From Escherichia coli (GTDB lineage Bacteria; Pseudomonadota; Gammaproteobacteria; Enterobacterales; Enterobacteriaceae): a DNA stretch of 64,000 nt. Under the pieces are notes generated by a model. That model saw only the letters and a program-made list of their open reading frames with translations, ran no database searches and was not told where the DNA came from. A program made the position numbers and the translations under genes. Positions 25,096 to 25,143 of the stretch are shown here, piece by piece; the first letter of the stretch is position 1, and each line of letters begins with the position of its first letter. The stretch lies in NCBI RefSeq assembly GCF_003018255.1, contig NZ_CP027440.1; one strand, 5' to 3'.

Positions 25096-25100
25096 TGAAC

Positions 25101-25135
25101 ACCTCATCCTGAGGGGGGCCCTGTCAGGATGAGGT
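25101..25135. terminator. hairpin in the 48-bp gap between the convergent MFS gene and sapF
   Basis: ACCTCATCCTGA / TCAGGATGAGGT 12-bp inverted repeat with an 11-nt G-rich loop; T-rich on the minus-strand side. Confidence 0.6.
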
Positions 25136-25143
25136 GCAAACCA

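What the first reader, a model, noticed from the sequence alone, without database searches (positions are those of the whole stretch)
25096..25143. Right junction: MFS gene and sapF converge with only 48 bp and one shared hairpin
The block ends 48 bp from the sapF stop codon. A single 12-bp-stem hairpin (25,101–25,135) is the only terminator candidate for both convergent transcripts, and it has a T-tract only on the sapF side. Read-through from the efflux operon into antisense sap RNA is therefore plausible.
Basis: seen in the sequence. Interest (0 to 1): 0.3.

Follow-up and report, generated by a model that had tools for sequence, protein, structure and literature searches.

The report
Shared hairpin between eefD and sapF
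A strong stem-loop sits in the 48-bp gap between two converging E. coli genes (the eefD efflux pump gene and sapF); it is real and conserved across Escherichia, but it looks like an ordinary transcript-end hairpin that belongs to the sap side, not to the inserted efflux block.

Summary
The MFS gene (eefD, stop at 25095) and sapF (stop at 25144-25146) converge across 48 bp. That gap holds one perfect 13-bp stem-loop at 25100-25136 (-29.4/-28.0 kcal/mol on the two strands, z about -5). A weak U-rich tail exists only on the sapF-sense strand.

The "block" is the published eefRABCD operon, present in 2039 of 5426 complete E. coli genomes. The others carry ycjD at this position.

The new point is that the hairpin is not part of the block. 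ycjD-type genomes such as K-12, and E. albertii and other Escherichia, keep a homologous hairpin just after sapF. It shows compensatory pair changes (C:G/U:A, A:U/G:C), while loop and flanks differ. So the variable segment ends at 25099/25100. The U-tail is the antisense of eefD's last codons and is not conserved.

Most likely this is a conserved 3'-end hairpin. On the sapF strand it would be a weak intrinsic terminator and exonuclease barrier. On the eefD strand it would be a U-less protective or pause hairpin followed by C-rich, G-poor sequence that fits Rho loading. Read-through into antisense sapF is possible but probably short, and I could not test it without RNA data. Ordinary; low interest.

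The parts
17505..25095 (+). eefRABCD block (context): eefR (TetR), eefA (adaptor), eefB (RND permease, frameshifted here), eefC (outer membrane factor) and eefD (MFS).
   Evidence: RefSeq annotation of a 99.9% identical locus. NCBIfam hits. The operon is described in PMC12817139. It is present in 2039 of 5426 complete E. coli genomes.
23932..25095 (+). eefD, a Bcr/CflA-family MFS efflux transporter gene. Its stop codon TAA is at 25093-25095.
   Evidence: ORF list. TIGR00710 scores 280.9 bits against a cutoff of 200.9. Annotated as a 'multidrug efflux MFS transporter'.
25084..25099 (-). Interrupted U-rich tail of the sapF-sense hairpin (UUCAUUACUUUUGAU). It is the antisense of eefD's last codons (CAA AAG TAA) plus the 4-nt spacer TGAA.
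   Evidence: Sequence. Tail score 2.49, against 0.02 on the other strand. Not conserved in E. albertii, L192 or ycjD-type genomes.
25100..25136 (.). Stem-loop: arms 25100-25112 and 25124-25136 (13 perfect pairs), loop 25113-25123 with an inner GGG/CCC helix. It folds on both strands.
   Evidence: It is single-copy per genome. It is conserved with compensatory changes across Escherichia.
25137..25143 (.). 7-nt spacer (CAAACCA) between the hairpin and the sapF stop. It is homologous to the first 7 nt after the sapF stop in ycjD-type genomes, which carry an extra 20 nt before the hairpin.
   Evidence: Comparison of 13 loci and further variants.
25144..25950 (-). sapF, the ATP-binding subunit of the Sap ABC transporter and the last gene of sapABCDF. 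Its stop codon TAG is at 25146-25144.
   Evidence: ORF list. NF011692 SapF equivalog scores 588.9 bits against a cutoff of 452. RefSeq annotation.
25137..25413 (+). C-rich, G-poor untranslated stretch downstream of the hairpin on the eefD-sense strand (antisense to sapF). Candidate Rho-loading region.
   Evidence: 78-nt windows starting at 25116-25136 and 25216-25336 have C/G 1.36-1.73, roughly the 90th-98th percentile of the 64-kb window. No ORF of 80 aa or more on this strand. Composition only; Rho dependence was not tested.
24943..25063 (-). Strongly C-rich, G-poor stretch downstream of the hairpin on the sapF-sense strand (antisense to eefD). Candidate Rho back-up for sapF read-through.
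   Evidence: 78-nt windows whose 5' ends lie at 25063 down to 24943 have C/G 1.67-2.83, 92nd-99.9th percentile. Composition only.

Best explanation
The element is a conserved stem-loop that marks the 3' end of the sapABCDF operon in the genus Escherichia. In eef-positive strains it also lies 4 nt after the stop codon of the converging eefD gene.

Shown:
- It is a very stable hairpin on both strands.
- It is single-copy.
- It is homologous in eef-type and ycjD-type E. coli and in other Escherichia species.
- Its pairing is kept through changes on both sides of several pairs, while loop, spacer and tails vary.

Inferred, sapF side: on sapF transcripts the hairpin plus its interrupted U-tail gives a weak intrinsic terminator. 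The stem also blocks 3'-to-5' exonucleases. RNA polymerases that escape run into a strongly C-rich antisense-eefD stretch where Rho can act.

Inferred, eefD side: on eefD transcripts the same hairpin has no U-tract, so it does not terminate by itself. It pauses RNA polymerase. Rho then loads on the C-rich untranslated RNA just downstream and terminates within roughly the next one to three hundred nucleotides. Exonucleases trim the RNA back to the hairpin. Head-on encounters with polymerases coming from sap would also be focused at this site.

Net effect: some short antisense RNA over the sapF 3' end is expected when eef is expressed, but not long antisense sap transcripts.
For: Stability and uniqueness. 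One copy per genome, in all 2039 eef+ genomes.

Homology across haplotypes and species:
- K-12-type: CACCTCATTCTGACAA...TTGTCAGAATGAGGTG, 27 nt after the sapF stop.
- 13 E. coli loci compared.
- Escherichia sp. L013, L014 and E. albertii L015.
- Metagenome variants L167 and L192.

Pair counts on 21 distinct variants:
- 87% of cells are paired, against 34-48% in slid registers.
- 5 of 18 pairs change on both sides.
- Pair 11-37 is C:G in 13 sequences and U:A in 8, with none unpaired.
- Pair 4-44 shows A:U, G:U and G:C.

No homologous hairpin follows sapF in 76 other enterobacterial species. Several of these have unrelated canonical terminators there.

Tail and composition asymmetry. On the same rough scale the sapF-sense site scores -5. 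The fabI terminator, which is a mapped strong 3' end in K-12, scores -12. The eefD-sense site scores -43.

Known classes that match the anatomy: U-less protective stem-loops followed by rut sites at Rho-dependent 3' ends (PMC6061677), and hairpin-dependent collision sites between convergent genes.
Against: - No RNA data for any eef+ strain could be examined.
- In K-12, curated Term-seq 3' ends list nothing between fabI (1350208) and puuD (1361446). So the homologous hairpin was not called as a 3' end in three growth conditions. Low sap expression could explain this.
- The U-tail is not conserved, so intrinsic termination cannot be the conserved function.
- The covariation rests on few independent events among closely related sequences. 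Compensatory changes in inverted repeats can also arise from template-switch correction at the DNA level without selection on RNA.
- G:U versus C:A asymmetry gives no consistent strand.
- The Rho inference rests on base composition alone.
Confidence: 0.55

Rival explanations
1. First reader's reading taken strongly. The hairpin does not stop eef transcription. When the eef operon is induced, RNA polymerase runs far into sapF and sapD on the antisense strand. This lowers sap expression by transcriptional interference or antisense pairing, coupling efflux induction to reduced Sap transport.
For: No U-tract on the eefD-sense strand. The stop codon lies only 4 nt from the stem, a position at which an intrinsic terminator was almost fully repressed in vivo (PMC4824070). 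No second terminator-like site lies on the + strand for several hundred bases.
Against: The RNA after the eefD stop is untranslated and C-rich/G-poor, the usual substrate for Rho. Stable U-less stem-loops are typical of Rho-dependent 3' ends. The hairpin predates and outlives the eef/ycjD swap, so it was not shaped by this coupling. eef expression in E. coli has not been documented in the paper that describes the operon. In this genome eefB is frameshifted.
Confidence: 0.15
2. The palindrome has no present function. It is a neutral leftover whose symmetry is kept by DNA-level processes such as template switching within quasi-palindromes. Its position at the haplotype edge is accidental.
For: No 3' end was called at the K-12 homologue. 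There are few independent compensatory events. There is no consistent strand signal. The outer pairs and the pairs next to the loop are often broken.
Against: The core arms CATYCTGAC/GTCAGRATG are invariant from E. coli to E. albertii, while the adjacent spacer, loop and tail are unalignable. The hairpin was retained through replacement of the whole neighbouring segment (eefRABCD versus ycjD) and through a 20-nt indel right beside it.
Confidence: 0.15
3. The element acts at the DNA level. It would be a protein-binding palindrome or a recombination or insertion hot spot that defines where alternative cassettes (eefRABCD or the DUF559 gene ycjD) are exchanged.
For: The boundary between the two haplotypes falls exactly at the left foot of the hairpin. 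The core arm sequence, not only the pairing, is invariant. ycjD encodes an endonuclease-like DUF559 protein, and its start codon lies at the hairpin's edge.
Against: The loop length varies from 9 to 15+ nt, which is bad for a dimeric DNA-binding site with fixed spacing. It is single-copy with no second matching site at the left junction. Exchange of the cassettes is explained simply by homologous recombination in fabI and sapF. No recombinase is nearby.
Confidence: 0.05
4. The hairpin's conserved role is translational control of the gene downstream of sapF on the same strand. In ycjD-type genomes it would sequester the ycjD ribosome-binding site and start codon. In eef-type genomes it would be a relic.
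For: In ycjD-type genomes the 3' arm on the sapF-sense RNA reads ...AAUGAGGUG followed by AUG or AUA, and the annotated ycjD start is inside or directly after the arm.
Against: Outgroups (E. albertii, Escherichia sp. L013, L014, L192) carry eef, not ycjD, and already have the hairpin. So it predates ycjD at this locus.
Confidence: 0.05

Closest known systems
Protective stem-loops at Rho-dependent transcript 3' ends (Dar and Sorek 2018, PMC6061677)
   Same: An energetically stable stem-loop is not followed by a U-rich run (eefD-sense strand). C-rich, G-poor untranslated RNA follows immediately downstream, where rut sites are reported to lie.
   Different: Rho dependence and the 3' end position are not measured here. 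The same DNA also serves the opposite strand, where a weak U-tail is present.
Bidirectional terminators between convergent E. coli genes (Ju et al. 2019, as summarised in 10.1101/2022.10.23.513370)
   Same: One hairpin-encoding element sits in a short gap between convergent genes. It folds on both strands and does not look like a canonical intrinsic terminator on at least one strand.
   Different: That class was defined by overlapping mapped 3' ends, and it works best for highly expressed pairs. Expression of eef and sap is unknown or low, and no 3' ends are mapped. In ycjD-type genomes the homologous hairpin sits between co-directional genes.
Canonical Rho-independent (intrinsic) terminator
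   Same: A GC-containing 13-bp stem followed, on the sapF-sense strand, by a U-rich stretch.
   Different: The U-tract is interrupted (UUCAUUAC...) and is absent on the other strand. It is not conserved in relatives. The loop is long (11 nt). The stop codons lie only 4 and 7 nt from the stem.
REP (repetitive extragenic palindrome) elements as 3'UTR terminator/stabiliser elements
   Same: An extragenic palindrome at gene ends between convergent genes. It has a proposed dual role in limiting read-through and protecting upstream mRNA (10.64898/2026.03.23.713779).
   Different: It is not repetitive (one copy per genome). It has no match to any Rfam family.
eefRABCD operon of E. coli phylogroups B2, D, E, F, G (PMC12817139)
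   Same: The neighbouring block is this operon, at the published location between fabI and sapF, with ycjD as the alternative allele.
   Different: That paper does not discuss the eefD-sapF hairpin or termination ('terminator' occurs 0 times). In this window eefB carries a 1-nt deletion not seen in any of 2039 complete eef+ genomes.

Membership tests
Intrinsic (Rho-independent) terminator | Stable GC-containing stem-loop | tested here: met
   13 perfect pairs plus an inner GGG/CCC helix. -29.4 and -28.0 kcal/mol, z about -5.
Intrinsic (Rho-independent) terminator | Run of U directly after the stem, sapF-sense strand | tested here: inconclusive
   UUCAUUACUUUUG has 4 U in the first 8 and 8 in 13. 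Tail score is 2.49. The rough discriminant is -5, higher than the -12 of the experimentally mapped fabI terminator on the same uncalibrated scale. The tail is not conserved in E. albertii, L192 or ycjD-type genomes.
Intrinsic (Rho-independent) terminator | Run of U directly after the stem, eefD-sense strand | tested here: not met
   CAAACCACUAACG has 1 U in 13. Tail score is 0.02 and the discriminant is -43.
Intrinsic (Rho-independent) terminator | Mapped RNA 3' end a few nt after the stem | not testable with these tools
   No 3'-end data for an eef+ strain were accessible. For the K-12 homologue, no curated 3' end is listed in Adams et al. 2021.
Rho-dependent 3' end with protective stem-loop | Stable stem-loop without a U-rich tail | tested here: met
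   eefD-sense strand. The class is as described in PMC6061677.
Rho-dependent 3' end with protective stem-loop | rut-like C-rich, G-poor, untranslated RNA just downstream | tested here: inconclusive
   C/G is 1.59 in the 78-nt window starting at 25136 (96th percentile) and 1.45-1.73 for windows starting at 25216-25336, except 1.36 at 25276. No long ORF on this strand. This is a composition proxy only.
Rho-dependent 3' end with protective stem-loop | Read-through increases when Rho is inhibited | not testable with these tools
   Needs bicyclomycin or rho-mutant RNA-seq in an eef+ strain.
Bidirectional (collision-type) terminator of convergent genes | Single hairpin-encoding element in a short gap between convergent genes, folding on both strands | tested here: met
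   48-bp gap with one hairpin that is stable on both strands.
Bidirectional (collision-type) terminator of convergent genes | Overlapping 3' ends of the two convergent transcripts, with efficiency rising with expression | not testable with these tools
   No full-length RNA data. eef expression in E. coli is undocumented.
REP / BIME elements | Many dispersed copies per genome | tested here: not met
   One locus per genome in 2039 genomes; the second 'place' reported in many genomes is most likely the same palindrome matched on the opposite strand (not checked). One site in the 64-kb window.
Any curated RNA family (Rfam 15) | Match at or above the gathering score | tested here: not met
   Only chance-level hits (mir-674 at 18.9 bits against a threshold of 93) in 24000-26500.
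eefRABCD operon (identity of the neighbouring block) | TetR, adaptor, RND, outer membrane factor and MFS genes in this order between fabI and sapF | tested here: met
   Description in PMC12817139.
eefRABCD operon (identity of the neighbouring block) | Intact eefB reading frame | tested here: not met
   A 1-nt deletion at 21406 splits eefB into 661-aa and 374-aa ORFs. 0 of 2039 eef+ complete genomes share it.

The most novel reading that the evidence does not exclude
The hairpin is more than a passive transcript end. It would be a sequence-specific element kept since before E. coli and E. albertii split. It would act as a fixed insulator or programmed polymerase-collision site protecting the sap operon from whatever is placed next to it. 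It would also define the exact edge at which alternative cassettes (the eefRABCD pump or the endonuclease-like ycjD) have been exchanged.
Probability: 0.08. Interest if true: 0.4.

Novelty: new member of a known kind. Interest (0 to 1): 0.15.

Why it matters
The practical value is modest.

First, it corrects where the eefRABCD/ycjD polymorphism ends. The edge is at the foot of a conserved sapF hairpin, not at the sapF stop codon. This bears on the published question of how often eef was lost or replaced in E. coli.

Second, it gives a concrete and easily mutated site for testing how a U-less hairpin between convergent genes limits read-through, whether by Rho, by polymerase collision or by exonuclease trimming. 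The natural allelic series (C:G versus U:A pair, loop-length variants, tail present or absent) is already available in sequenced strains.

It does not point to a new mechanism.

Tried and rejected
- **Rfam.** A scan of 24000-26500 at permissive E-value gave only chance hits.
- **Dispersed-repeat idea.** BLAST of the 48-nt gap against 5426 E. coli genomes found one locus per genome. A window search found only the two arms plus one 12/13 chance match at 28795. Rejected.
- **K-12 Term-seq tables (Adams 2021).** There is no entry for sapF or ycjD, and no 3' end between fabI and puuD. This is uninformative for eef+ strains and only weak negative evidence for K-12.
- **Other datasets not held.** EHEC Term-seq (PMC7547250) and Dar and Sorek supplements are not held. 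Weaver 2019 and Thomason 2015 are not held.
- **Terminator discriminant.** I used the d'Aubenton-Carafa-style formula recalled from memory with ViennaRNA energies. It is not calibrated, because the experimentally mapped fabI terminator scores negative. I used it only as a relative scale.
- **Strand inference.** Comparing G:U against C:A asymmetry and per-strand folding energies was inconclusive. The eefD-sense fold is favoured by 1-6 kcal/mol in most E. coli variants, and the sapF-sense fold is favoured in E. albertii.
- **Metagenome pattern scan.** It gave useful extra Escherichia variants. However, 76 of 120 hits were unrelated GC-rich environmental palindromes that share CCTCATCCTGAGG by coincidence with the eef-type arm. 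The ancestral Escherichia arm is CATTCTGACAG.
- **Base composition.** GC content of the block does not differ from its flanks, so there is no compositional sign of recent transfer.

Full report
**1. What is at the coordinates**

The window is an E. coli chromosome segment. An MFS transporter ORF runs 23932..25095 on the + strand. sapF runs 25144..25950 on the - strand. The gap between them is 25096-25143, 48 bp.

The gap holds a perfect 13-bp inverted repeat. The arms are CACCTCATCCTGA (25100-25112) and TCAGGATGAGGTG (25124-25136). They are separated by an 11-nt loop, GGGGGGCCCTG, which can form three more G:C pairs.

Folded as RNA, the 48 nt give -29.4 kcal/mol on the + strand and -28.0 on the - strand. 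Z-scores are about -5, and none of 200 shuffles fold as well. In a 45-nt sliding-window scan (15-nt steps) the hairpin gives the lowest + strand energy in the whole 64 kb and one of the two lowest on the - strand. It is the second-longest of 14 short-range inverted repeats.

After the stem, the sapF-sense RNA continues UUCAUUACUUUUGAUUG. The eefD-sense RNA continues CAAACCACUAACGG. The consensus scan reported no other terminator-like site on either strand between 24549 and 25707, apart from a sub-hairpin of the same element.

The stem is 13 bp, not 12, and the T-tract is interrupted.

**2. What the neighbours are**

A locus 99.9% identical to the window is annotated in this order: fabI, TetR regulator, RND adaptor, RND permease, outer membrane factor, MFS transporter, then sapF-sapA on the other strand.

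NCBIfam places the MFS protein in the Bcr/CflA family, and sapF is the SapF equivalog.

The block is the eefRABCD operon described in PMC12817139. That paper places it between fabI and sapF in phylogroups B2, D, E, F and G. It reports the small gene ycjD in its place in phylogroups A, B1 and C and in ST69 and ST182.

In the collection searched here, 2039 of 5426 complete genomes have the eefD-sapF junction. The rest match only from the sapF stop codon onward. The eef paper does not mention a terminator or hairpin at this junction.

GC content of the block equals that of its flanks.

**3. The hairpin does not belong to the block**

Reading the K-12-type locus shows a very similar hairpin downstream of sapF: TCACCTCATTCTGACAA-GATTTAATC-TTTTGTCAGAATGAGGTGA. 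Megablast missed it because the loop and a 20-nt indel separate it from sapF.

I extracted the sapF 3' flank from 13 loci and from further loci. The layouts are:
- eef-type E. coli: eefD stop, TGAA, stem, a loop of G5-7 then C2-4 then TG with variable length, stem, a 7-nt spacer (CAAACCA, CAAAACA, CAGAACA or TAGAACA), sapF stop.
- ycjD-type E. coli: the same stem with T:A in place of C:G at one pair, a different loop, and a 27-nt spacer. The 7 nt of that spacer next to the sapF stop match the eef-type spacer.
- A second ycjD-type (L010): it has the eef-type sapF 3' end and an inner stem like that of other Escherichia.

Homology between the haplotypes therefore runs from sapF through the whole hairpin. 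It stops at the hairpin's left foot, window 25099/25100.

The hairpin occurs once per genome, so it is not a dispersed repeat.

**4. Depth of conservation**

I scanned one genome per species with SapF, which returned 80 loci. The homologous hairpin was found only in Escherichia:
- Escherichia sp. MOD1-EC7003 (L013).
- A divergent E. coli-like genome (L014).
- E. albertii (L015).

All three have eefD converging on sapF.

E. albertii keeps only the core CATTCTGACAG/CTGTCAGAATG, with a new inner helix. Its spacer and tail cannot be aligned with E. coli.

In the other Enterobacteriaceae, fabI either follows sapF directly on the same strand, or other DNA intervenes. Several of these have unrelated canonical terminators after sapF.

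This indicates that eef plus the hairpin is the older arrangement in Escherichia, and that the ycjD arrangement is derived. This agrees with the published view that eef was lost.

**5. Is the pairing under selection?**

I aligned 21 distinct natural variants and counted pairs for an 18-pair helix:
- 87% of cells are paired, against 34-48% when the partner column is slid by 1-3.
- Five pairs change on both sides.
- Pair 11-37 is C:G in 13 sequences and U:A in 8, and is never unpaired.
- Pair 4-44 shows A:U, G:U and G:C.
- Two pairs near the loop switch between G:C and A:U.
- Seven pairs of the core (columns 8-15 with 33-40) never vary; the eighth, 11-37, is the C:G/U:A switch.

The sample is small and closely related. 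Inverted repeats can also be symmetrised by template switching at the DNA level. This is therefore supporting evidence, not proof.

Per-strand folding energies do not single out one transcribed strand.

**6. Terminator properties**

The U-rich tail on the sapF side is the antisense of eefD's last codons (CAA AAG TAA) plus four bases. It is absent in E. albertii, weaker in metagenome variant L192, and absent in ycjD-type genomes. Intrinsic termination therefore cannot be the conserved role.

I applied a rough discriminant, with the formula recalled from memory and not calibrated for these energy parameters:

| Site | Score |
|---|---|
| sapF-sense hairpin | -5 |
| fabI terminator (mapped strong 3' end in K-12) | -12 |
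| eefD-sense hairpin | -43 |

The sapF-sense site is thus at least as terminator-like as one verified terminator. The eefD-sense site is not.

Downstream of the hairpin, both strands are C-rich and G-poor:
- + strand: C/G of 1.4-1.7 (92nd-98th percentile of the window) from 25116 to about 25340.
- - strand: C/G of 2.0-2.8 (up to the 99.9th percentile) from 25063 to 24943.

Both stretches are untranslated antisense RNA.

This is the anatomy reported for Rho-dependent 3' ends in E. coli. There, a stable stem-loop without a U-run protects the RNA from exonucleases, and the rut site lies just downstream (PMC6061677).

Hairpins between convergent genes have also been shown to fix the position of head-on polymerase collisions (10.1101/2022.10.23.513370).

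In the other direction, the stems start only 4 nt after the eefD stop codon and 7 nt after the sapF stop codon. An intrinsic terminator placed a few bases after a gene was almost fully repressed in vivo (PMC4824070). Some leakage is therefore expected.

**7. Experimental data**

Curated K-12 Term-seq tables contain no 3' end for sapF or ycjD, and none between fabI and puuD.

No 3'-end tables for eef+ strains were available.

The eef paper reports no expression data for the operon in E. coli.

The read-through question therefore cannot be settled here.

**8. Verdict**

The feature is real and stronger than chance. It is a conserved single-copy stem-loop tied to the 3' end of the sap operon.

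In eef+ strains it is shared with the converging eefD gene. It most likely works as a transcript-end element:
- On the sapF strand, as a weak intrinsic terminator and exonuclease barrier.
- On the eefD strand, as a U-less protective or pause hairpin with Rho acting just beyond it.

The idea that the block ends at sapF is not. The read-through idea is possible but probably limited in extent.

This is an ordinary kind of element next to an already published operon, so interest is low.

Noticed in passing
window 21406 (eefB, 19440-22546): eefB has a 1-nt deletion: AATTCGTGATGCC in relatives is AATTCGTGTGCC here. This splits eefB into 661-aa and 374-aa ORFs that overlap at ATGA (21422-25). None of 2039 eef+ complete E. 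coli genomes share it, so it is either a private inactivating mutation or a sequencing error. If real, the RND pump is broken in this strain and polarity could lower transcription reaching eefD.
   Followed up: yes
window 17254-17282: A second hairpin (TCTGTACCGGAG / CTGCGGTACAGA, 12-nt arms) lies near the left edge of the eef block, between the fabI promoter region and eefR. Its inner part (CCGGAG...CTGCGG) is also present in the K-12-type locus, so the left boundary of the variable segment also lies just beyond a partly shared hairpin.
   Followed up: partly
window 25113-25123, and loci L003-L008, L144, L156, L160, L209: The hairpin loop is a G-run followed by a C-run whose lengths vary between strains (G5-7, C2-4, sometimes with AA, TT or A inserted). 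This looks like homopolymer slippage. It changes the small inner helix but not the main stem.
   Followed up: partly
L002 5930-5975 (K-12-type locus); also L011, L012: In ycjD-type genomes the annotated ycjD start codon (GTG, or ATG in some strains) lies inside or directly after the 3' arm of the hairpin on the sapF-sense RNA, and a GAGG lies within the arm. The hairpin could therefore mask ycjD translation initiation.
   Followed up: no
L002 5370-5620 (K-12-type locus): The segment between fabI and ycjD contains a partial duplicate of the ycjD 3' end (GGTTCAG...AATATTCTCCAGCACCGTCTCC occurs twice). It also contains GC-rich palindromic repeat units (CCCTCTCCCCAGAGGGGCGAGGGG and similar). The ycjD allele is therefore itself a mosaic.
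   Followed up: no
L093-L212 (metagenome contigs), e.g. L094, L140: The search pattern also hit 76 unrelated GC-rich environmental contigs. They carry a palindrome family with consensus NCCTCATCCTGAGGAGC-(8-20 nt)-GCTCCTCAGGATGAGGN, with several copies on some contigs (6 arm matches in L094, 4 in L140). It looks like a REP-like repeat of soil bacteria. The resemblance to the eef-type arm is coincidental.
   Followed up: partly
window 28795-28807: CACCTCATCCTGT, a 12 of 13 match to the hairpin arm, lies inside the 3' end of sapA. The count of such matches is at chance level (3 found including the two real arms, 0.9 expected).
   Followed up: yes
L011 (NZ_CP034404.1, strain CRE10): In this genome sapF is truncated and sapA-D are missing. 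An IS30-like ISApl1 transposase gene sits between the sapF remnant and puuP.
   Followed up: no
window about 10111, 31066, 46651 and 61396: Four other 45-nt windows fold at -25 kcal/mol or below on at least one strand. One is a perfect 16-bp inverted repeat at 61398-61432. Another lies between ymjA and puuP at about 31066. They are probably other terminators or palindromic elements.
   Followed up: no
window 25144-25158 versus L002 5999-6013: The last four sapF codons and the stop differ by four synonymous changes between eef-type (AAG GAC CGT TAG) and K-12-type (AAA GAT CGC TAA) genomes. Other Escherichia show mixed versions. The recombination history of the junction therefore reaches a few codons into sapF.
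   Followed up: partly
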